Of a stretch of 44,843 nucleotides of DNA, positions 9,349 through 38,818 are shown piece by piece. This DNA comes from a virus. The stretch lies in the IMG/VR virus record IMGVR_UViG_3300045988_068058, positions 1-44,843 of that record. One strand, given 5' to 3'. Numbering within the stretch: position 1 is the first letter of the stretch; every line of letters begins with the position of its first letter. A program made the translations under genes and the position numbers. Under the pieces are notes generated by a model. The model searched no databases. It had not been told where the DNA came from and saw only the letters and a list, made by a program, of their open reading frames with translations.

Positions 9349-10911
9349 TTGGATGTTGATAGGATGGCAAATGAGAAAAATTTAATACCGAATTCTGAAC
9401 GAACTCCGAGCGAACTCCGAGAAATAACAAAAAAAGGCGGTATTAAGTCGGGAGAAGTACGCCGTCAAAAAAAGACCCTTTCTGAATTAGCAAAAATGAT
9501 AGCTGAGAATCCTGCCCCGAATGCCGCGAAAAAGAAACTCACAAAGATGGGTATATCTGATGAGGACGCAAATAATAACGCCTGTATTGTAGCTGCCGTA
9601 TATGATAAAGCTATCAAAGGCAATATGCAGGCAGTAGACAAATGGGAGCAGTTAGTAGCTGTATCAAAATCAGATGAAAGCAAATATGAACTTCCTGCCA
9701 GAGTGCTTGGCAAGGCGTTCGTAGACATTAACCGGCAGATCAAGCCCAATATCGAATATGTATTTGAAGGCGGTCGTGGTGGTCTGAAATCTTCATACGT
9801 AGCCTTTAAAATTGTTGAGCTTATCAAGAACAATCCTCAGATGCACGCCTGCATCACAAGGCAGGTAGCTGGTACTCTGAAAGATTCCGTGTACGCTAAT
9901 ATGAAATGGGCTATTAATGAACTTGGACTGATGGAAGAATTTGAATGTAAGGTGTCGCCACTTGAGATTAAATACATTAAAACCGGGCAGACAATATACT
10001 TCCGTGGTCTGGACGATGAAACCAAACTGAAATCTATTAAGCCGGAGTTTGGGTATATCGGAATCCTCTGGAAAGAGGAAAAAGATCAAATGAAGGGAGA
10101 TGCCCAGGAACGTTCTGTTAATCAGTCAGTGCTTCGTGGCGGCGATGAATCCTATGATTTTTCATCATATAACCCACCAAAATCAAAATCAAACTGGGTA
10201 AACAGGATTAAGCTCACGCCTAACCCGAAAAGGGTTATTCATCATTCGAGTTATCTGGAAGCCCCGGCGGAGTGGCTCGGGCAGAAGTTTATTGACGATG
10301 CAGCACATCTGAAAGAAATCAATCCAGAAGCCTATGAGCATGAATACCTGGGTGTCCCAAATGGAGACGGTGGAAACGTATTTGAATATCTCGAAATTAG
10401 AGATATTACAGACGAAGAGATCAGTCACATGGATCGTGTTTTCGCTGGCGTAGACTATGGATGGTACCCGGATGCCTTCTGCTATCTCCGAACTTATTAT
10501 GATTCTGCCAGAGAGAAGATATATCTGATTGATGAATTGTATGTAAATAAATGGAGTAACTCCAAGACCGCTGATTGGATCAAGAAAAAAGGCTATGATG
10601 ATTATACGATGATATGTGATTCTGCGGAGCCTAAATCCGTGAACGACTTCCGGGACGCTGGACTTCCTGCTAGAGGAGCAATCAAGGGGCCGGGAAGTAT
10701 CGAGTATGGTTTTAAATTCTTACAGACCAAGACACTTGTCATTGACCCGAAGCGAACGCCGAATGCATACAAGGAAATTACGGAATATGAGTATGATCGA
10801 GACAAAGAGGGTAATGTAATAAGCGGTTATCCTGATGGAAATGACCATGCAATCTCGGCACTTAGGTATGCTTACGAACCGCTATTTAACAGAAGGGGGA
10901 ACAGTGCATAA
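9349..10911 (+). CDS. terL: Terminase large subunit (PBSX-like) with an N-terminal TerS-like extension
   Basis: ATPase motifs EGGRGGLKSS and ILWKEE, plus a nuclease-domain Asp (FAGVDYGW). The N-terminal ~120 aa carries KKGGIKSGEVRRQKK, recalled from small-terminase proteins. Confidence 0.9.
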   Translation: MDVDRMANEKNLIPNSERTPSELREITKKGGIKSGEVRRQKKTLSELAKMIAENPAPNAAKKKLTKMGISDEDANNNACIVAAVYDKAIKGNMQAVDKWEQLVAVSKSDESKYELPARVLGKAFVDINRQIKPNIEYVFEGGRGGLKSSYVAFKIVELIKNNPQMHACITRQVAGTLKDSVYANMKWAINELGLMEEFECKVSPLEIKYIKTGQTIYFRGLDDETKLKSIKPEFGYIGILWKEEKDQMKGDAQERSVNQSVLRGGDESYDFSSYNPPKSKSNWVNRIKLTPNPKRVIHHSSYLEAPAEWLGQKFIDDAAHLKEINPEAYEHEYLGVPNGDGGNVFEYLEIRDITDEEISHMDRVFAGVDYGWYPDAFCYLRTYYDSAREKIYLIDELYVNKWSNSKTADWIKKKGYDDYTMICDSAEPKSVNDFRDAGLPARGAIKGPGSIEYGFKFLQTKTLVIDPKRTPNAYKEITEYEYDRDKEGNVISGYPDGNDHAISALRYAYEPLFNRRGNSA

Positions 10912-11102: not shown

Positions 11103-12548
11103 ATGGGACTTATAACAACACTAAAAAGGTGGTTTAACATGATATTCAAAAAACAAGCCGAAGAGGATTTTAACATCCAGGCAGCAGAATTTCCAGAAAT
11201 GGAATCACTGATTAACCGGTGTGCGAACATCTACAGGGGAGTACCGGAATGGTTAGATGACAAGAATAACATCAAGACGATTAATTTTGCTAAATCTGTC
11301 TGTTCAGAAACAGCACGGCTCGCAACATTGGCGATCGGCATTCAGATAGACGGTTCCGCAAGGGCTAAGTGGCTACAGGAACAGATTGATAAGGTATATT
11401 TCCAGATCCGGCACTGGGTAGAGTACGGCTGTGCTTACGGAACGGTGTTCGTCAAACCAAACAGTGAGAGCCTTGACGTATTTACTCCGGCAGACGTGAT
11501 GATTGTGGATTATGACAATCAGGAAATTAAAGGGATTATATTCAAGGATTCTTGTACTGTTGGACGGAAATACTATACAAGGCTCGAATATCATCGTTTT
11601 GTTGAGACCACTGTAGATGGCGTGACAACCTATCCGTATTATGTTTCAAACAGAGCCTATGTATCAAAATCCCCTCAAAGCATCGGCGATAAAATCGACC
11701 TTAAACAGACCAAATGGGCTGATCTGATGGCAGATACGCCACCGATTCTCAAAGCGAACGGGGAGAAACTGGACGGACCTCTATATGGAGTACTTCGGAC
11801 ACCACAGGCGAACAATGTGGATATTAGCACGCCGCTCGGACTTCCGATATTCGCTGAAGCTATCGAGGAACTGAAAGACCTGGACATTGCATACAGCCGC
11901 AATGCCGGAGAAATTTTCGATTCTCAGAAGATTGTTCTGGCAGATGATAGACTGCTGATGCCAAGCGGTGCACCTGTGTCAGCTATGTCGCCACAGGGCA
12001 TGGAGAACAGGCGAAATGAGATGAACTTACCGCACTTTGTCAAGAATGTATTTGGTGAGGGACAAGACACTTTCTATCAAGAAATCAATCCTCAACTCAA
12101 TACAGATACCCGTATAAGCGGAATAAATGCCCTTTTAAGCCAGTTGGGGTACAAGATTGGATTCTCCAACGGATACTTTGTTTTTAACGAATCTAGCGGT
12201 ATTCAGACAGCCACAGGAGTAGAAGCAGAACAGCAGAGGACAGTGCAGTTTATCAAAGATGTTCGAGACAAACTGGAATCTTGTCTGGACGAAGTTATTT
12301 ATGCACTGAACGTTTACGCTGACCTGTACGGACTTGCACCTGTCGGAGTCTATGAAGTCAATTATGATTTTGGAGATATTCTGTATGTGCGTGAAAATGA
12401 CCGTGCAAGATGGTGGCAGTATGTGACCACTGGCAAGGTTCCGGCATGGTTGTATTTTGTAAAATTCGAGGGAATGACTGAGGAAGAAGCGAAAGCAATG
12501 GTCAAAGAAGCTCAGCCAGACGAGCCAACATTATTCGGAGAGGAGTAA
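11103..12548 (+). CDS. Portal protein
   Basis: 481 aa, directly after terL, with an acidic C-terminus. Size and position fit SPP1 gp6-type portals. Confidence 0.8.
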   Translation: MGLITTLKRWFNMIFKKQAEEDFNIQAAEFPEMESLINRCANIYRGVPEWLDDKNNIKTINFAKSVCSETARLATLAIGIQIDGSARAKWLQEQIDKVYFQIRHWVEYGCAYGTVFVKPNSESLDVFTPADVMIVDYDNQEIKGIIFKDSCTVGRKYYTRLEYHRFVETTVDGVTTYPYYVSNRAYVSKSPQSIGDKIDLKQTKWADLMADTPPILKANGEKLDGPLYGVLRTPQANNVDISTPLGLPIFAEAIEELKDLDIAYSRNAGEIFDSQKIVLADDRLLMPSGAPVSAMSPQGMENRRNEMNLPHFVKNVFGEGQDTFYQEINPQLNTDTRISGINALLSQLGYKIGFSNGYFVFNESSGIQTATGVEAEQQRTVQFIKDVRDKLESCLDEVIYALNVYADLYGLAPVGVYEVNYDFGDILYVRENDRARWWQYVTTGKVPAWLYFVKFEGMTEEEAKAMVKEAQPDEPTLFGEE

Positions 12549-12552
12549 AAAA

Positions 12553-13947
12553 ATGGCAGATAAACCAGTAACAAGGGAAGAAAAATATCTTGCGTACTTG
12601 ACAGGTGATTACAAGGGCGAACTCCCAAAGCCAATCACAAGAAAAGAGAAGTATTTATACGAATTATGTTTGAAAGGAATGGGCGGTGAAATCTCGCCGG
12701 AGGAAATCAAAGCCGCAGTAAATGAGTACCTTGAAAAGAATCCGGTCAAGCCCGGAGCCACCACAGAACAGGCACAGCAGATCGAACAGAACAAGACGGA
12801 TATTACTTCGCTAAAGGAAGATATAAATATGTTATCTGTTAGCTCCATCTCTATTAAAGACGTGCTTACTGATAAAACAACACATGCCGGAATATATATA
12901 AGAACGGATGTACCAGTTGGTGATCCAAGATTTTATGAAGTTAATGAGAACTTTAATTCTTCCAATATCAATGAGATAGAACCGAACGAAACATATACCG
13001 TAATTTGTAAGAGGTATAACAATGGAGAAGAAATTCATTTTTGTGATGCAATGTTTTTCGATGTTGATCACAAATATATATCCAGAATTCAGAATACAAC
13101 TAAGTTTACAACACCAAATAACGCTAAATATTTTGCGATGACTCTATATTCAACAAGTTACGATCCAAATTCATGGGATAATTTTGATGATATCATTGTT
13201 GAAAATTCTAATCAAATTACTTATCCATTAATGAAAAATAGATTAAAAAATACCAGGGCATTTATAGGTTGCGAAGGCAAAAAGTGGATGGTTATAGGCG
13301 ATAGCATCACAGAACATAATTTTCGTGCGCTTGCGAACTATCATGATTATGTTGCCGAAGAACTAGGACTTGAAGTAATAAATTGTGGTGTAGGCGGTAG
13401 TGGTTATAAAGTTCATGATACAGATGATGATTATATTTCAACAATTTTACCATTTTATAAAAGAATTAGTAATTATTCGGAATACAAACCTGATTTAATC
13501 ACGATTATGGGTGGCATAAATGATTTGTTGTTTAGTGGCAAACAAATGGGCGAAATCACAGATACATCAACAGATACTTGGCTCGGTTGTGTATATCAAT
13601 TAATTCAAAATATAAAAACGACATTTCCGAACGTTCCTTTTGGTATTATGTCACCACTCCCAGCTTGCACAGTTGGAAGTGGAAATTGTTTATATAATTT
13701 TAACCCATCCGATAAGACAAACCAGGAATATATATTTGTTCAAAAACTAGAAGAGCTTTGCGATTATTACTGTATTCCATTTTTGAATCAATATAATAAA
13801 AGCGGTTTTAGACCTTGGGATGACGATTTCAAGTTAAAATACACATCATGTAGGCAAGAACAAAGCGGTGATGGATTGCATCCTAATGTCCAAGGGCATG
13901 AACTCATCTATCCTAGAATCAGGGAATTTATAAAAACGCTCATATAA
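12553..13947 (+). CDS. Fibre-like protein with C-terminal SGNH/GDSL hydrolase (esterase) domain
   Basis: All four SGNH blocks are present: GDSITE, GVGGSG, GGINDL and DGLHPNVQGH. N-terminal duplicated TR.EKYL motif and a coiled-coil segment. Confidence 0.85.
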   Translation: MADKPVTREEKYLAYLTGDYKGELPKPITRKEKYLYELCLKGMGGEISPEEIKAAVNEYLEKNPVKPGATTEQAQQIEQNKTDITSLKEDINMLSVSSISIKDVLTDKTTHAGIYIRTDVPVGDPRFYEVNENFNSSNINEIEPNETYTVICKRYNNGEEIHFCDAMFFDVDHKYISRIQNTTKFTTPNNAKYFAMTLYSTSYDPNSWDNFDDIIVENSNQITYPLMKNRLKNTRAFIGCEGKKWMVIGDSITEHNFRALANYHDYVAEELGLEVINCGVGGSGYKVHDTDDDYISTILPFYKRISNYSEYKPDLITIMGGINDLLFSGKQMGEITDTSTDTWLGCVYQLIQNIKTTFPNVPFGIMSPLPACTVGSGNCLYNFNPSDKTNQEYIFVQKLEELCDYYCIPFLNQYNKSGFRPWDDDFKLKYTSCRQEQSGDGLHPNVQGHELIYPRIREFIKTLI

Positions 13948-14558: not shown

Positions 14559-15788
14559 ATACTTAGTCCAGAATATTTACGAAGAATTACGGAGGGCAGT
14601 GAACAAATTGCCGAAGAACTGCATCAGTATATCATCTCTGAAATCGTATCACGGATGATGGCAAGAATCGGCAGAGGTGAGGACTATATTCTGACTAACG
14701 CTGATGCGTGGCGAATTAGAACGCTACAAGAATCCGGTGAACTACTAGAGGGCATTCTGGCAGAATTATCCAGATATACCAAGCGTGAACAACAGGAGCT
14801 TCTTGAAGCGTTCGAGGATGCCGGAATCACTGCAATGAACTATGATGACAAGGTATATAAGGCGGCAGGATTAAGCCCTGTACCGCTCGAACAATCCCCG
14901 GCTATGATAAGACTCATGGAACGGAATATGCTTGCAACCATGGGCGAGTGGAAGAACTTCACACGAACGACCGCAAGTGTCGCTCAGAGACTCTATATCG
15001 AGCAATGTGACCTTGCATATAATCATGTGATGACTGGGGCAGTTGGATATACGCAAGCCATCAAAGAAGCAGTTAACAACGTTGTGAGTGATGGCGTTAC
15101 CGTCACATATCCATCTGGTAGAAAAGACACAATTGAAACAGCAGTAGCACGCTCTGTCAGAACTGGCGTGGCACAGGCTACGGGAGATATATCCCTGAAA
15201 CGTATGGAAGAAATGGACTGGGATTTAGTTCTAGTCAGTGCACATATGGGAGCCAGGACAGGTGACGGCGGCGAGAATCCCGGAAATCACTCATGGTGGC
15301 AAGGCAAGATATACTCTCGTTCTGGCAAGAGTAAGAAATTTCCACCGTTCTCATTGACCGGATATGGAACAGCAAGCGGACTGTCAGGGGTCAACTGTCG
15401 GCATAGCTTTGGAGCCAGTGACGGGGAATTTAATCCCTATGCAGAACTATCAGCACAGGATAAAGCTGATAAAGGCAAACAGTACGAAAAGGAACAGAGA
15501 CAACGTACTTATGAACGGAGAATCAGAAAGACAAAGAGAGAAGTTCTCGGAATGCAAACAGCGGTTAATAACTGCAAGGACGAACAGGCGAAATTCGCAT
15601 TACAACAAGACCTTGACCGGAAGTCTTATCTTTTGCAGAAACAAAATGCTGCATACAAAGATTACTGCAAGCAGAACGACCTGAGGGAACTGCAAGACCG
15701 ACTCATGATAGCAAAGTGGAATCGCCAGAACGCCGCCAAAGCCAGAGGAGCGGCAAAGAGATATAAAACAGCAAAGGGGATTGACTGA
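14559..15788 (+). CDS. Minor capsid / head morphogenesis protein (Phage_min_cap2-like), probable non-canonical ATA start
   Basis: The frame is open from 14553. A strong RBS GAGGTGA lies at 14545-14552. The upstream segment LSPEYLRRITEGSEQIAEELHQYIISEIVSRM looks like the family N-terminus. The first ATG is at 14655. Motifs VSAHMGARTGD and GVNCRHS. Confidence 0.75.
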   Translation: MLSPEYLRRITEGSEQIAEELHQYIISEIVSRMMARIGRGEDYILTNADAWRIRTLQESGELLEGILAELSRYTKREQQELLEAFEDAGITAMNYDDKVYKAAGLSPVPLEQSPAMIRLMERNMLATMGEWKNFTRTTASVAQRLYIEQCDLAYNHVMTGAVGYTQAIKEAVNNVVSDGVTVTYPSGRKDTIETAVARSVRTGVAQATGDISLKRMEEMDWDLVLVSAHMGARTGDGGENPGNHSWWQGKIYSRSGKSKKFPPFSLTGYGTASGLSGVNCRHSFGASDGEFNPYAELSAQDKADKGKQYEKEQRQRTYERRIRKTKREVLGMQTAVNNCKDEQAKFALQQDLDRKSYLLQKQNAAYKDYCKQNDLRELQDRLMIAKWNRQNAAKARGAAKRYKTAKGID

Positions 15789-16476: not shown

Positions 16477-16496
16477 TATTGATAAGGGGTATGCTC

Positions 16497-16697
16497 ATGA
16501 AATTATATGTGTTCACAAAGAAAGATATAGACAGATTCTTGATAGAGTGTAATTTTACACCGGACGAGGAAAGGTTATTCCGATTGAGGTGTAAGGAATA
16601 CACTCTTGAATACTGCGCTGAACAGATGAATGTGAGTATATCCACGGCGAAACGATTAAGCCGGAGGGTGAATAATAAAATAATTAAAGTGTGTTAA
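16497..16697 (+). CDS. Sigma-70 region-4-like HTH regulator (66 aa)
   Basis: TPDEERLFRLRCKEYTLEYCAEQMNVSISTAKRLSRRVNNKI fits the region-4 HTH pattern. RBS AAGGGG lies 8 nt upstream of ATG 16497. Confidence 0.6.
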   Translation: MKLYVFTKKDIDRFLIECNFTPDEERLFRLRCKEYTLEYCAEQMNVSISTAKRLSRRVNNKIIKVC

Positions 16698-16708
16698 GAT
16701 GACAATAA

Positions 16709-16746
16709 AAGCCCCCGGGATTATCTCTCAGGGGCTTATTTTTATT
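16709..16746. terminator. Bidirectional intrinsic terminator between convergent genes
   Basis: AAGCCCC / GGGGCTT stem with an A-run on the 5' side and a T-run on the 3' side. Confidence 0.7.
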
Positions 16747-16966
16747 CTGATTTTATCGTTATAATTGCGGCATTTGCGAACAATTCAAGTTCTACATTTC
16801 GTGTTTCAATTTCTTCATCGTAATAATCTAGCATGTCATTGTAAAGACCGTCAAGATCATCTGATGCGCCAGCCATAAAATGGTTGGAACCATCTTCATA
16901 AATTTCAAATATGTCAATACGAGTTTGATTTTTTTTCGCTTTTTCAAACGCCTGTTTAAACTTCAC
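16742..16966 (-). CDS. Small, highly acidic protein (74 aa), third gene of the RHH cassette
   Basis: GTG start 6 nt after AGGAGG. Asp/Glu-rich (DDLDGLYNDMLDYYDEEIE). Confidence 0.6.
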   Translation of the reverse strand: MKFKQAFEKAKKNQTRIDIFEIYEDGSNHFMAGASDDLDGLYNDMLDYYDEEIETRNVELELFANAAIITIKSE

Positions 16967-16980
16967 TTTCTTCCTCCTAC

Positions 16981-17184
16981 TTATGCCCGAGCGTACGAAA
17001 TAAAATTCTGCTCGGCGGTTTCGTCAACGAGTTCCGCCGGGATTCTCACCCAGTTCTCACCCAGAGAATTTATAAAATCCTCTTTCTGGGACTCTGTGCC
17101 GCACAGCCAAGCTGCTGTAACTTTGGCACATCCGAAGTTTTCGGAATTGTTCCGCGCCACCTGTTTTAATTCAAATTTCTTCAT
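16981..17184 (-). CDS. Hypothetical 67-aa protein, second gene of the RHH cassette
   Basis: RBS GGAGGA upstream of the ATG. Confidence 0.6.
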   Translation of the reverse strand: MKKFELKQVARNNSENFGCAKVTAAWLCGTESQKEDFINSLGENWVRIPAELVDETAEQNFISYARA

Positions 17185-17252
17185 CTTTTGTCCTCCGTTC
17201 CGCCCCTGTCCGGGGCTGTGTGATTGATTTCTTTAACTGTCCTTATTATACA

Positions 17253-17290
17253 TATATGTGCGTTATATGTCAAGCGTATATGTGCGTTAT
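17253..17290. promoter_or_regulatory. Two direct copies of TATATGTGCGTTAT (putative RHH operator)
   Basis: Copies at 17253-17266 and 17277-17290, between the RHH gene and the next gene. A third copy lies at 17505-17516. Confidence 0.5.
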
Positions 17291-17292
17291 TT

Positions 17293-17472
17293 TTATTTTT
17301 TTTCTAGCCTGTCGAGTTCTGACAGAACAATGTCTCGAATAAAGGCACTGTTACTCTTGCCAAGGCCGAGCTTTTCAATTCTCTCTTTAGTTCCTTTTGG
17401 AAAGACAATATTCAGTCTATAGTTGTTGTTCTCATACTTCCTTACTGCTCTTTTCTGCGCTTCTGTTGCCAT
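17293..17472 (-). CDS. Ribbon-helix-helix (Arc/CopG-type) DNA-binding protein
   Basis: MATEAQKRAVRKYENNNYRLNIVFPKGTKERIEKL..SNSAFIRDIVLSEL fits a beta-alpha-alpha RHH pattern. RBS AAGGAGGG upstream. Confidence 0.7.
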   Translation of the reverse strand: MATEAQKRAVRKYENNNYRLNIVFPKGTKERIEKLGLGKSNSAFIRDIVLSELDRLEKK

Positions 17473-17504
17473 GTTAATCCCTCCTTTTTTCTTAATTATA
17501 AATC

Positions 17505-17516
17505 TATGTGCGTTAT
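17505..17516. promoter_or_regulatory. Third TATGTGCGTTAT operator copy, in the divergent promoter region
   Basis: Exact 12-mer shared with 17255-17266 and 17279-17290. Confidence 0.5.
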
Positions 17517-17600
17517 TGCACAATACTTTTTCGATACTTTTTTGAACTTTTTAGATTGATACATCTATGTAAAAATATAATCAGAAAGGCGGTGCATAAG

Positions 17601-37498: not shown

Positions 37499-37518
37499 AT
37501 TAGTCACAGTTAGTCACA
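37499..37518. repeat. Tandem ATTAGTCACA / GTTAGTCACA (putative arm-type sites overlapping the int stop codon)
   Basis: Copies at 37499-37508 and 37509-37518, in the same orientation as the 37253 pair. Confidence 0.5.
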
Positions 37519-38678
37519 AATGGAACTTTTATCTTTTCTATCTCTGCCCGGAGTTCTTCCAGTGTCCTGTGGCCGTACACAGCATTTGTGACGTCTCCAC
37601 CAAAGGAGTGGCCAAGCATTCGTTTTCGGTCATTCTCCCGGACGCCGTATTTTTCACACAGCGCAGAAAAGGTGTGTCGACAATCATGCGGCGTGTGTTT
37701 TGGATTGCCGACTATTCCCAAACGTTCCAGTGTAGGATAGAACAATGCTTTTCTGTGATGCTGCTGAGTATACACGCATAATTTTCCATCTTGTGTCAGT
37801 ACTTTCTGTTCGACAAAATGATATACGGCAGGATGTATCGGGACAATTCTGTTTTTACCGGCTTTTGTTTTAATGCCGCCTTGAAAGTATTTCTCTTCCA
37901 GGTTAGTTGTAAGTTTTAACACTTCACCGATTCTCCAACCAGAATAGCACATAATAAGAATGAGCTGCACTTCTGGATCGTCCTTATTATTCCACAGTAC
38001 TTGCATCTCCTGATCAGAAAATGGTGTTCCATGTTCGGTGTCATTATCAGTATTGACATGGACATATAACGCCTTGTTTTCCGTTACGATTTCTGAGTAT
38101 ACGGCATATTTGTACATCTGTTTAAACAGAGTCAAAATAGCCATCTGGCTTTGCTTTTTCAGCTTACAGTCATCAATAACCTTTTGCATATCAGGAGCCT
38201 TTAAATCTTCGAATATGCGATTGTGCAGAACAGTACAGTTTGAATAGGCTGTCCGGTATGCTTCCTTTGAACTGTATGACAGTTTTGTTCCCTCTGGGAA
38301 CTTCCACGCATAAAACTGTTTATATACCTCTGAGAACGTCAATTTCTTGATTTCCGGGTGTTTTCCTTCGACACCCTTAATTGTATTGTAGTCAGCAATT
38401 AAGCGGTTCACAAGGGCGTCTATGTCGGTCGTAGGGGACACCTCAAGAGTCCGTTCCATGCCGGGTTGATACGTGCCGGCTTTGTATGCTGTCAGGACGG
38501 TGAAACCTTTTATCCAGTCATCTACGTAGCAGATCGCCGGCGGACGTTTTAGTTTACCATTATCGCCCAGTGTAGCCGGCGGATGCACTGCAAAACAGTT
38601 TCTCCGATTCTTGCCAAGATACCGGATAGAGCCGAAATTATTCGGTAACTTTGGATATTTCTTTCTTTTCTTCGCCAT
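37500..38678 (-). CDS. int: Tyrosine recombinase (phage integrase)
   Basis: HTPHDCRHTFS, MLGHSFGGD and AVYGH motifs (R-H-R-Y family). ATG 38678 follows RBS AGAGGAA. The track start at 38774 is over-extended. Confidence 0.9.
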   Translation of the reverse strand: MAKKRKKYPKLPNNFGSIRYLGKNRRNCFAVHPPATLGDNGKLKRPPAICYVDDWIKGFTVLTAYKAGTYQPGMERTLEVSPTTDIDALVNRLIADYNTIKGVEGKHPEIKKLTFSEVYKQFYAWKFPEGTKLSYSSKEAYRTAYSNCTVLHNRIFEDLKAPDMQKVIDDCKLKKQSQMAILTLFKQMYKYAVYSEIVTENKALYVHVNTDNDTEHGTPFSDQEMQVLWNNKDDPEVQLILIMCYSGWRIGEVLKLTTNLEEKYFQGGIKTKAGKNRIVPIHPAVYHFVEQKVLTQDGKLCVYTQQHHRKALFYPTLERLGIVGNPKHTPHDCRHTFSALCEKYGVRENDRKRMLGHSFGGDVTNAVYGHRTLEELRAEIEKIKVPFVTNCD

Positions 38679-38818
38679 TTTTATTCCTCTTTTCTTTATG
38701 TAACTGCTTTTAGGTATAAAAATAACAGCCGAACAAATTTTCTGTCTTGTTCGACTGCTCCGAAGATGATACAATATGTTTTGCCAGAATATAGCATCTC
38801 TTCGGAGATGTATAAACG

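What the first reader, a model, noticed from the sequence alone, without database searches (positions are those of the whole stretch)
16742..17523. Minus-strand three-gene cassette controlled by an RHH protein with three copies of its putative operator: anti-defence or TA-like moron inside the structural region
This is the only minus-strand block within 35 kb of + strand late genes. It is bounded by a bidirectional terminator (16709-16746) and a divergent promoter region. Order on the minus strand: a 59-aa Arc/CopG-type RHH protein (17472..17293); a 67-aa protein (17184..16981); a 74-aa very acidic protein (16966..16742, DDLDGLYNDMLDYYDEEIE). The 12-mer TATGTGCGTTAT occurs three times. One copy is upstream of the RHH gene (17505-17516). 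Two direct 14-mer copies (TATATGTGCGTTAT, 24-nt phasing) lie between the RHH gene and gene 2 (17253-17290). This suggests autoregulation plus separate control of the two downstream genes. Small acidic proteins under a dedicated RHH/HTH regulator are typical of anti-CRISPR/Aca-type or DNA-mimic anti-restriction loci. An atypical TA module is the alternative.
Basis: partly seen in the sequence, partly recalled or inferred. Interest (0 to 1): 0.65.

Follow-up and report, generated by a model that had tools for sequence, protein, structure and literature searches.

The report
RHH-repressed swappable anti-defence cassette
A temperate gut-bacterium phage carries, among its head genes, a small repressor that sits on its own promoter and on a very strong second promoter driving two tiny unknown proteins. 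In related phages the same repressor-promoter unit drives dozens of other small genes, some of them anti-CRISPR-type proteins, so this is probably an on-then-off switch for counter-defence genes.

Summary
Three minus-strand genes (59-aa RHH-like, 67-aa g2, 74-aa acidic g3) lie between a bidirectional terminator and the head genes. TATGTGCGTTAT occurs exactly three times and nowhere else in the window.

The third copy fills the spacer of the RHH promoter (P1).

In 88 of 94 related loci the RHH gene is followed by this same operator-promoter unit. The operator sequence changes together with the RHH beta-strand across clades.

Behind P2 lie at least 45 unrelated cargo families, mostly small and acidic. 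They include an AcrIC5-family protein, a Cas5b homologue (as in AcrIB3), RelE-type pairs and GIY-YIG nucleases. A more distant RHH clade drives ArdC. The site is a hot spot: empty in one relative, with XRE-HTH-regulated cassettes in others.

g2 and g3 match no known family. g2 has a confident fold with no solved counterpart.

Best reading: an Aca-like RHH repressor, analogous to the recently described Aca14, that controls counter-defence cargo. The regulation is well supported. The function of g2 and g3 is inferred by association only. A toxin-antitoxin reading is unlikely for this locus.

The parts
16709..16746 (.). Bidirectional intrinsic terminator. It ends the minus-strand cassette and the upstream + strand genes, and it overlaps the g3 stop codon.
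   Evidence: It folds on both strands with flanking U-runs. The same hairpin closes other cargo sets in relatives.
16742..16966 (-). g3: 74-aa acidic protein (net -9, pI 4.4), the second cargo gene. It is the rarest part of the cassette.
   Evidence: The ORF is and the charge. Only 3 close homologue clusters plus one chimera exist among 5.8 billion proteins. It is absent from all other fetched loci. There is no Pfam, PHROG, PADLOC, NCBIfam or PDB match.
16981..17184 (-). g2: 67-aa protein, the first cargo gene behind P2. It recurs in several cassette types.
   Evidence: - The ORF is.
- 22 close clusters exist; one of them is indexed in 532 blocks of the assembly collection.
- Seven remote small homologues were found.
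- The AF2 model has pLDDT 95.3 with a beta-beta-alpha-alpha-beta topology.
- There is no significant fold match in the PDB. The best BFVD match is an uncharacterised viral protein, TM 0.71.
- It occurs with C6, with C6-C7-Cas5-like, alone, or under an XRE-HTH regulator.
17202..17216 (-). GC hairpin (GCCCC-GGACA-GGGGC) in the g2 leader, just upstream of the SD (GGAGG 17196..17192).
   Evidence: The fold is. Most of the 40 distinct P2 leaders carry a hairpin at this position, with different stem sequences. Its role was not tested.
17245..17273 (-). P2: consensus sigma-70 promoter for g2-g3 (-35 TTGACA 17273..17268, 17-nt spacer, -10 TATAAT 17250..17245).
   Evidence: It matches 12 of 12 consensus positions. 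It is conserved behind the RHH gene in 88 of 94 loci.
17253..17266 (-). Operator O2b (ATAACGCACATATA on the coding strand), inside the P2 spacer.
17277..17290 (-). Operator O2a, abutting the P2 -35 on its upstream side. It lies 24 nt from O2b and directly after the RHH stop codon.
   Evidence: The spacing is 24 nt in 49 loci and 26 nt in 33 loci.
17293..17472 (-). 59-aa RHH-like repressor (Arc/AmrZ-like). It has the invariant FPKGTKERI motif, and YRLNIVF is the putative DNA-reading beta-strand.
   Evidence: It also hits phrog_31631 at 6e-19.
17495..17523 (-). P1: the RHH promoter (-35 TTGTGC 17523..17518, -10 TATAAT 17500..17495). Operator O1 (17505-17516) lies in its 17-nt spacer.
   Evidence: The sequence is and the repeat. 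The layout is identical in L015/L017. The L020-type relatives have a stronger P1 with 3-4 operator copies.

Best explanation
**The element.** This is a self-contained accessory-gene cassette at a recombination hot spot of a temperate Lachnospiraceae-type phage.

**The regulator.** It is a 59-aa Arc/AmrZ-like RHH protein that binds the direct repeat ATAACGCACATA. One copy lies in the spacer of its own weak promoter P1. Two copies bracket the -35 and fill the spacer of the consensus promoter P2, directly downstream of its stop codon.

**The expression platform.** P2, a conserved leader with a hairpin and an SD form a fixed unit. The cargo behind it is exchanged between that unit and a shared bidirectional terminator.

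**Inferred mechanism.**
1. When phage DNA enters a cell that lacks the RHH protein, host RNA polymerase fires P2 at full strength. g2 and g3 are made in a burst.
2. RHH accumulates from P1 (and from read-through).
3. RHH then occupies all three operators, shuts P2 off and throttles itself.
4. In a lysogen the circuit holds the cargo at a low level.

**Inferred function.** By association with the cargo found in relatives, g2 and g3 are most likely counter-defence proteins (anti-CRISPR or anti-restriction type) and the RHH is a functional analogue of an Aca protein.

**Shown versus inferred.** Shown: the anatomy, the conservation, the operator/protein co-variation, the cargo diversity and the hot spot. 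Inferred: DNA binding, repression, the timing and the activity of g2 and g3.
For: **Operators and promoters**
- There are three exact 12-mers, placed in the same register in two promoters.
- In 88 of 94 loci the RHH gene is followed by operator, TTGAC(A/T), operator in the spacer, and a -10.

**Operator changes with the RHH beta-strand**

| Beta-strand | Operator |
|---|---|
| YRLNIVF | ATAACGCACATA |
| DRVNCMF | AAGCACACAT |
| DKVLVRF | TATAACGATATCGTTATA |
| D(S/N)ILV(K/R)F | ATAGGTATATACCTAT |

**RHH fold**
- The family profile hits the RHH regulator AmrZ at E 0.0039.
- Some source databases label relatives as RHH or antitoxin.

**Hot spot**
- The cassette is absent from MT835739, where 57 bp replace 872 bp.
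- In MT839401 it is replaced by a different XRE-HTH cassette at the same boundaries.
- The HTH-type cassettes carry g2 and other shared cargo behind a promoter with their own palindromic operator.

**Cargo**
- 45 clusters occur in 39 architectures, mostly small and acidic.
- They include AcrIC5 (PF22147, 87.7 bits against a cutoff of 27).
- They include a full-length Cas5b homologue (TIGR01895, 3.5e-19). It lies inside the same hot spot and once in one operon with g2.
- ArdC follows a distant RHH clade.

**Precedents in the literature**
- AcrIB3 is a phage Cas5 homologue that works as an anti-CRISPR (10.1101/2023.06.24.545427).
- Aca14 is an RHH repressor of its own operon and of a downstream AcrIF6/Cas5f-homologue operon (PMC13551039).
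- AcrIC5 orthologues are known in Firmicutes (PMC7913775).
Against: - g2 and g3 match no anti-defence family in Pfam, PHROGs, PADLOC, NCBIfam or the PDB.
- Only a few of the 45 cargo families carry an anti-defence annotation.
- Other cargo includes toxins (RelE-like in this subfamily; MazF and DUF4258 in distant clades) and GIY-YIG nucleases. The platform is therefore not specific to anti-defence genes.
- The RHH fold rests on marginal sequence statistics. No structure model of it was made.
- No binding, transcription or phenotype data exist.
- The host and its defence systems are unknown.
Confidence: 0.55

Rival explanations
1. Lysogeny-expressed moron. The cassette is expressed at a controlled low level from the prophage and benefits the lysogen (superinfection exclusion, defence against other phages, or host physiology) rather than countering host defences. 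RHH sets the dose.
For: - The phage is temperate: an integrase lies at 37500-38774.
- P1 and P2 are host-type promoters that would be active in a lysogen.
- Some cargo in relatives are toxins, TA pairs or nucleases, which often act as defence.
- Phage hot spots are known to carry defence genes (general knowledge).
Against: - PADLOC finds no defence family in the three proteins.
- The cargo is dominated by 50-110-aa acidic proteins, which is not typical of defence systems.
- The annotated cargo that points anywhere points to counter-defence: AcrIC5, the Cas5 homologue and ArdC.
Confidence: 0.2
2. An immI-like switch. As Arc and Mnt control the antirepressor Ant within the late region of P22, the RHH here would control small antirepressors (g2 and/or g3) that inactivate the repressor of this or a competing prophage.
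For: - An Arc-like regulator with repeated operators sits in promoters inside the structural region of a temperate phage.
- The cargo is small and variable. Some L020-type loci have Bro-N/ANT genes a few kb away.
Against: - g2 and g3 have no similarity to Ant, Bro or known small antirepressors.
- The cargo families are too many and too unrelated for a single target such as one repressor.
- None of the annotated cargo is an antirepressor.
Confidence: 0.1
3. An atypical type II toxin-antitoxin module, with RHH as the antitoxin/repressor, g2 as the toxin and g3 as an acidic modulator or second antitoxin.
For: - Some sources label RHH relatives 'antitoxin'.
- Family members occur in hicA-hicB-RHH operons. 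One of these has the very same promoter-operator as P2.
- Family members also lie upstream of MazF and of RelE-like genes.
Against: - g2 is mildly acidic and resembles no toxin by sequence or by a confident fold model.
- g2 occurs alone behind P2 with the same terminator (L053). It also occurs with four different neighbours.
- The RHH is only 59 aa and has no C-terminal toxin-binding tail.
- The genes are 108 nt apart, and a separate, stronger promoter drives the supposed toxin.
- The same RHH precedes at least 45 unrelated cargo families.
Confidence: 0.07

Closest known systems
Aca14-controlled anti-defence operons (RHH-type anti-CRISPR-associated regulator, Pasteurella multocida; PMC13551039)
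   Same: - A small RHH repressor has its binding sites in its own promoter and in the promoter of the next operon downstream.
- That downstream operon carries anti-CRISPR-type cargo, including a Cas5 homologue.
- HTH and RHH regulators are interchangeable at equivalent loci (compared).
   Different: - Aca14 binds an AT-rich inverted repeat over the -10. Here direct repeats bracket the -35 and fill the spacer.
- aca14 lies downstream of its cargo in an acr-rhh operon. Here the RHH gene is alone, first, and has its own promoter.
- The hosts differ (Proteobacteria versus Lachnospiraceae phages).
- Nothing here has been tested experimentally.
Classical HTH Aca systems (Aca1, Aca2 and others) with strong acr promoters
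   Same: A consensus-strength promoter is shut off by a co-encoded repressor. The cargo is variable and small, which is the basis of guilt-by-association searches. A structured leader is present (PMC13551039 abstract).
   Different: The DNA-binding fold is RHH rather than HTH. There are two promoters instead of one autoregulated operon. There is no evidence that the leader hairpin is bound by the regulator.
P22 immI region (Arc and Mnt RHH repressors controlling ant)
   Same: Arc-like RHH repressors act on operators inside promoters, in a small regulatory island embedded among the late genes of a temperate phage (from general knowledge; AmrZ/Arc similarity).
   Different: There is one regulator rather than two. 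The promoters are tandem and co-directional rather than overlapping and divergent. The cargo is not an Ant homologue and is highly variable.
HicAB toxin-antitoxin operons with an RHH DNA-binding module
   Same: The RHH domain is homologous (64% and 44% identity). In L117 the promoter-operator is identical (TTGACATATAACGCACATAGATGTATAAT).
   Different: There is no HicA or HicB in the window. Here the RHH is a free-standing regulator of non-toxin cargo.
AcrIC5 and AcrIB3 (cargo precedents)
   Same: They occupy the same slot behind the same RHH-P2 unit in relatives (L105; L033/L054). AcrIC5 is small and acidic, like g3.
   Different: g2 and g3 are not homologous to either.

Membership tests
Ribbon-helix-helix (Arc/MetJ-type) transcription factors | An N-terminal beta-strand followed by two helices (beta-alpha-alpha) that forms an obligate dimer | tested here: inconclusive
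   - There is no Pfam, NCBIfam or PDB hit for the protein or for a narrow profile.
- A broadened profile hits AmrZ (3qoq) at E 0.0039, aligning the strand and helix 1.
- Three of 17 relatives hit Pfam Arc at about 0.006.
Ribbon-helix-helix (Arc/MetJ-type) transcription factors | Recognises short repeated operator sequences that overlap promoter elements, with specificity set by beta-strand residues | tested here: met
   This holds at the sequence level. The repeats lie in the promoter spacers and next to the -35. The operator sequence changes together with the beta-strand residues across four clades. Physical binding cannot be tested here.
Anti-CRISPR-associated (Aca) regulators | Encoded in or next to an operon that contains a known anti-CRISPR gene | tested here: inconclusive
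   This is met in relatives: AcrIC5-family cargo in L105, and the Cas5b homologue in L033, L040, L054, L055, L071, L073 and L089. It is not met in the window itself, whose cargo is unannotated.
Anti-CRISPR-associated (Aca) regulators | Binding sites lie within the cargo promoter so that the regulator represses it, together with autoregulation | tested here: met
   The site positions meet this. Repression itself cannot be tested with these tools.
Anti-CRISPR-associated (Aca) regulators | Sequence homology to a named Aca family (Aca1-14) | not tested
   No Pfam or NCBIfam family matched. The Aca14 sequence (WP_005725436.1) was not available.
Type II toxin-antitoxin module | A toxin gene of a recognisable toxin family or fold | tested here: not met
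   g2 and g3 give no hit in Pfam, PHROGs, PADLOC or NCBIfam. The confident g2 model matches no toxin fold in the PDB.
Type II toxin-antitoxin module | A fixed antitoxin-toxin gene pair co-transcribed from one autoregulated promoter | tested here: not met
   A separate consensus promoter lies in front of g2. The RHH precedes at least 45 different cargo families. g2 occurs alone or with other partners.
Known anti-CRISPR / anti-restriction protein families (for g2 and g3) | Sequence or fold similarity to a characterised inhibitor | tested here: not met
   Pfam, which holds AcrIC5 and other Acr families, gives nothing. The PDB sequence search for g3 gives nothing. The g2 fold has no PDB match: the best E-value is 0.54, and the best TM-score is 0.56, to the colicin E3 immunity protein.
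DNA-mimic proteins (Ocr/ArdA/AcrIC5-like) for g3 | A strongly negative surface arranged like a DNA backbone | not tested
   Only the net charge of -9 and pI of 4.4 are known.

The most novel reading that the evidence does not exclude
The RHH, its ATAACGCACATA operators and the consensus promoter form a portable expression platform. It was recruited from HicAB-type toxin-antitoxin autoregulation and defines a new Aca family that is very abundant in human-gut Lachnospiraceae phages but absent from deposited phage genomes. It marks a hot spot holding dozens of undescribed counter-defence genes. Among them, g2 (a fold with no solved counterpart) and g3 would be new inhibitors of type I-B/I-C CRISPR-Cas or other defences.
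Probability: 0.35. Interest if true: 0.7.

Novelty: new variant of a known kind. Interest (0 to 1): 0.55.

Why it matters
Few anti-defence genes are known for gut Firmicutes phages, because searches by association need an anchor gene. This RHH and its easily recognised operator-promoter unit would be such an anchor.

- The close RHH variant P0041 is indexed in 740 blocks of the assembly collection.
- The unit sits in front of at least 45 small protein families. [quoted passage not shown]
- It would extend the recently reported RHH class of Aca regulators (Aca14) to another phylum, with a different operator logic.
- It suggests that such regulators can derive from toxin-antitoxin promoter-operator modules.
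- The fixed promoter, leader and terminator also show how cargo is swapped precisely at a phage hot spot.

Tried and rejected
- **Direct family scans.** Pfam, PHROGs, PADLOC and NCBIfam gave nothing for the three proteins except an unannotated PHROG for the RHH.
- **PDB searches for the RHH.** The protein alone and a narrow profile gave nothing.
- **hhalign against Arc and Mnt.** The result was nothing, but the test has little power (Neff 1.4).
- **Single-sequence AF2 of g2.** It was unusable, pLDDT 52.8. It was redone with remote homologues.
- **Myb-like idea for g2.** It came from hits to two long repeat proteins (P0152, P0153) in the exhaustive search. It was rejected because the confident model is beta-rich and the hits are repeat-inflated.
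- **Fold searches of g2.** Against the PDB and BFVD there was no informative match.
- **Contexts of remote g2 homologues.** They lie only in arrays of unannotated small ORFs.
- **Rfam scan of the cassette.** It gave nothing, so there is no sign of a CRISPR-repeat-like RNA.
- **tblastn of the RHH.** There was no match among deposited phages or plasmids.
- **Aca14 sequence.** It could not be obtained.
- **Palindromic operator.** This was considered, because TGTGCGTTATTGCACA at P1 was flagged as terminator-like. It was rejected as the general unit, because the P2 sites lack the inverted half. The conserved unit is the direct repeat.
Full report
**1. What is in the sequence**

The window is a temperate siphovirus-like phage genome.
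- It carries a DUF927 primase, a large terminase (9349-10911), a portal (11103-12548), minor capsid protein 2 (14655-15788), an endolysin-like gene and a minus-strand integrase (37500-38774).
  - a 59-aa protein (17472..17293);
  - g2, 67 aa (17184..16981);
  - g3, 74 aa (16966..16742; net charge -9, pI 4.4).
- The hairpin at 16709-16746 folds on both strands and has U-runs on both sides, so it is a bidirectional terminator.
- TATGTGCGTTAT is exact at 17255, 17279 and 17505 and occurs nowhere else in the window.

**2.

*P2.* The promoter scan finds a 12-of-12 sigma-70 promoter on the minus strand: TTGACA (17273..17268), a 17-nt spacer, TATAAT (17250..17245).
- On the coding strand the region reads ATAACGCACATATA-CGC-TTGACA-T-ATAACGCACATATA-TG-TATAAT.
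- One repeat therefore abuts the -35 and the other fills the spacer.

*P1.* The third repeat sits at the same spacer position in the RHH promoter: TTGTGC-A-ATAACGCACATA-GATT-TATAAT, 17523..17495.

*Read-through and leader.*
- No terminator separates the RHH gene from P2, so P1 transcripts can read through.
- The g2 leader carries a GC hairpin (17202-17216) just before the SD.

**3. The site is a hot spot**

Relatives 87-90% identical over the flanking head genes differ exactly here.
- MT835739 has 57 bp with a different terminator in place of 872 bp.
- MT839401 has a 1566-bp minus-strand cassette with an XRE-HTH gene and other small genes, between the same boundaries.
- The commonest g2 context (P0008, indexed in 532 blocks of the assembly collection) is promoter, g2, 57-aa HTH, 149-aa protein at this same site.
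- The HTH-type promoters carry their own palindromic operator in the spacer. It differs between the two HTH variants.

**4. The RHH gene and the operator-promoter unit travel together**

- The RHH family has 373 clusters.
- I fetched 15 loci through exact proteins, 80 from IMG/VR and 21 from genomes.
- In 88 of 94 loci with enough sequence, the RHH stop codon is followed by operator, TTGAC(A/T), operator in the spacer, and a -10. The two cores are 24 or 26 nt apart in most of them.
- P1 also carries operators: one copy in the window type, three to four in the L020 type.
- The module occurs in at least two unrelated element backgrounds.
- Hosts are Blautia, Dorea, Roseburia, Falcatimonas, Faecalimonas, Eubacterium plexicaudatum and other Clostridia.

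**5. Operator and protein co-vary**

An alignment of diverged members shows an invariant FPKGTKERI motif. The stretch just before it is variable, and in an RHH protein that stretch is the DNA-reading strand. The repeats change with it.

| Beta-strand | Operator |
|---|---|
| YRLNIVF | ATAACGCACATA |
| DRVNCMF | AAGCACACAT / AGGCACACAT |
| DKVLVRF | TATAACGATATCGTTATA |
| D(S/N)ILV(K/R)F | ATAGGTATATACCTAT |

The promoter-embedded layout is kept in each clade. This is the strongest evidence available without experiments that the repeats are the protein's operators.

**6. Is it an RHH protein?**

- There is no Pfam, NCBIfam or PDB hit for the protein or for a narrow profile.
- A profile that includes the diverged members hits AmrZ (3qoq), an Arc-family RHH regulator, at E 0.0039 over strand and helices.
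- Three of 17 members hit Pfam Arc weakly.
- Some source databases label relatives as PutA-RHH, plasmid RHH or antitoxin.
- I treat the fold as likely but not demonstrated.

**7. What lies behind P2**

*Diversity.* Across the loci I found 45 protein clusters in 39 architectures. Most are 50-110 aa with pI 4.1-5.

*Exchange points.* The promoter, leader, hairpin and SD are often identical in front of different first genes. The terminator is shared. Cargo is therefore exchanged between fixed flanks.

*Annotated cargo in the RHH subfamily with at least 74% identity to the window's protein.*
- An AcrIC5-family protein is the first gene in L105 (PF22147, 5.6e-25, 87.7 bits against a cutoff of 27).
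- A full-length type I-B Cas5b homologue occurs in seven loci (TIGR01895, 3.5e-19, below the model's trusted cutoff; PF09704 weak).
  - It lies inside the same hot spot.
  - In L033 it shares an operon with g2: RHH | P2, g2, C6, C7, Cas5-like.
- RelE/ParE-like proteins occur with a small acidic partner.
- GIY-YIG nucleases occur.

*Distant RHH clades.* These precede ArdC (ArdcN 8e-30), MazF/PemK (8e-23) and a DUF4258 protein with an MqsA-like partner.

*TA relatives.* Two genomes have hicA-hicB(N-domain)-RHH operons. In L117 the promoter is TTGACATATAACGCACATAGATGTATAAT, which is the same promoter-operator as P2.

**8. g2 and g3 themselves**

*g2*
- All its relatives in the word-indexed search are close, mostly at least 85% identical.
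- The exhaustive HMMER search added seven small homologues at 39-52% identity, plus two spurious repeat proteins.
- With those homologues AF2 gives a confident model (pLDDT 95.3; beta-beta-alpha-alpha-beta).
- The model has no significant PDB match. The best E-value is 0.54. The best TM-score is 0.56, to the colicin E3 immunity protein, at probability 0.41.
- In BFVD it matches only an uncharacterised viral protein (TM 0.71).
- g2 occurs alone (L053), with C6, with C6-C7-Cas5-like, or under HTH control.

*g3*
- It has three close clusters and one chimera.
- It is absent from every other fetched locus.
- It has no PDB sequence match.

**9. Interpretation**

*Regulation.*
- The layout is that of a repressor-gated burst promoter: a consensus promoter that needs no phage factor, occluded by sites for a co-encoded autoregulated repressor.
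- This is the logic established for Aca proteins.
- For an RHH protein it was established only recently, with Aca14 (PMC13551039). Aca14 represses its own operon and the next operon downstream, which encodes AcrIF6 and a Cas5f homologue.

*Precedents for the cargo.*
- AcrIB3 is a phage Cas5 homologue that works as an anti-CRISPR.
- AcrIC5 orthologues are known in Firmicutes.
- The same cargo families appear behind RHH-controlled and HTH-controlled promoters at one site. This mirrors the reported HTH/RHH substitution.

*Conclusion.*
- I conclude that the window holds an Aca-like RHH regulator and two cargo genes that are most likely counter-defence proteins.
- The cargo function is inferred by association only.
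- The platform also carries toxins and nucleases, so 'conflict cargo' is the safer general label.

**10. Rivals**

- *TA module.* This is unlikely for this locus (see section 8, and the separate strong promoter in front of g2).
- *Lysogeny-expressed moron or defence gene.* This cannot be excluded.
- *immI-like antirepressor control.* This is possible but nothing supports it.

**11. Novelty**

- The kind (an Aca-type repressor with anti-defence cargo, including an RHH version) is known.
- This is a different variant. The RHH gene is monocistronic, lies upstream and has its own promoter. The operators are direct repeats around the -35 and in the spacer. It occurs in gut Firmicutes phages. It shows clear kinship to a HicAB promoter-operator.
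- By tblastn the RHH is absent from deposited phage and plasmid records.

Noticed in passing
window 16479-16697 (+): A 72-aa sigma-70 region-4-like protein (phrog_1190 2e-6; Pfam Sigma70_r4 weak) lies immediately upstream of the bidirectional terminator. It is conserved in all relatives whatever cassette follows. It may be a late-gene regulator.
   Followed up: partly
window 17202-17216 (-), and the P2 leaders of L015-L109: Most of the 40 distinct P2 leaders have a stem-loop just upstream of the SD. The stems differ between leader types (GCCCC/GGGGC, CCGCC/GGCGG, TCCCC/GGGGA, GGTATC/GATACC, GTAACCAC/GTGGTTAC). It could be an mRNA stabiliser or a translational control element. No Rfam match was found.
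   Followed up: partly
L117 2459-3180; L128 2512-3168: These loci hold hicA - hicB (N-terminal domain only) - RHH operons in bacterial genomes. The RHH is a separate polypeptide, 64% and 44% identical to the window's. The L117 promoter-operator is the same as the window's P2. This suggests that the phage regulatory module and a split HicB antitoxin share an origin.
   Followed up: partly
L054 4194-4886 (also L033, L040, L055, L071, L073, L089): A phage-encoded full-length type I-B Cas5b homologue (230 aa) is the last gene of RHH-controlled cassettes at the same hot spot. It is analogous to the Listeria anti-CRISPR AcrIB3, which was reported only from Listeria.
   Followed up: partly
L105 557-760: An AcrIC5-family protein (Pfam 87.7 bits) is the first gene behind the RHH-P2 unit in an IMG/VR contig. 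It is followed by four unannotated small genes.
   Followed up: yes
L125 3327-4163, L126 3323-4159: An ArdC anti-restriction protein (ArdcN plus zincin metallopeptidase) lies behind a promoter carrying the palindrome TATAACGATATCGTTATA, downstream of a 44%-identical RHH.
   Followed up: yes
window 12553-13947 (+): A 464-aa protein with a GDSL lipase/acylhydrolase domain lies between the portal and minor capsid genes. Relatives have a pectate-lyase-like gene, other genes or nothing at that position, so it looks like a second variable slot.
   Followed up: no
L002 3281-3888; L005 3900-4400: These are alternative cassettes at the same hot spot, controlled by a 57-59-aa XRE-HTH protein. A palindromic operator lies in the spacer of a near-consensus promoter: CCACTGAGTGG in L005 and TCACTCATTGAGTGA in L002. 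The operator differs between the two HTH variants.
   Followed up: partly
P0026 (88 aa, 987-bp ENA contig): The last 27 residues match the C-terminus of g3 at all but one position, but are fused to an unrelated N-terminus carrying PF27290. This looks like a recombination junction inside the 3' end of g3.
   Followed up: no
L004 (MT838775) 1-387: The first 387 bases look like part of a GC-rich membrane-permease-type gene joined to phage head-gene sequence. This is probably an assembly chimera in the deposited record.
   Followed up: no
window 17524-17600: The intergenic DNA towards the + strand head genes is conserved whatever cassette is present. It holds TTGATA-14 nt-TATAAT, a spacer too short for a standard sigma-70 promoter. 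How the downstream head genes are transcribed after the terminator is unclear.
   Followed up: no
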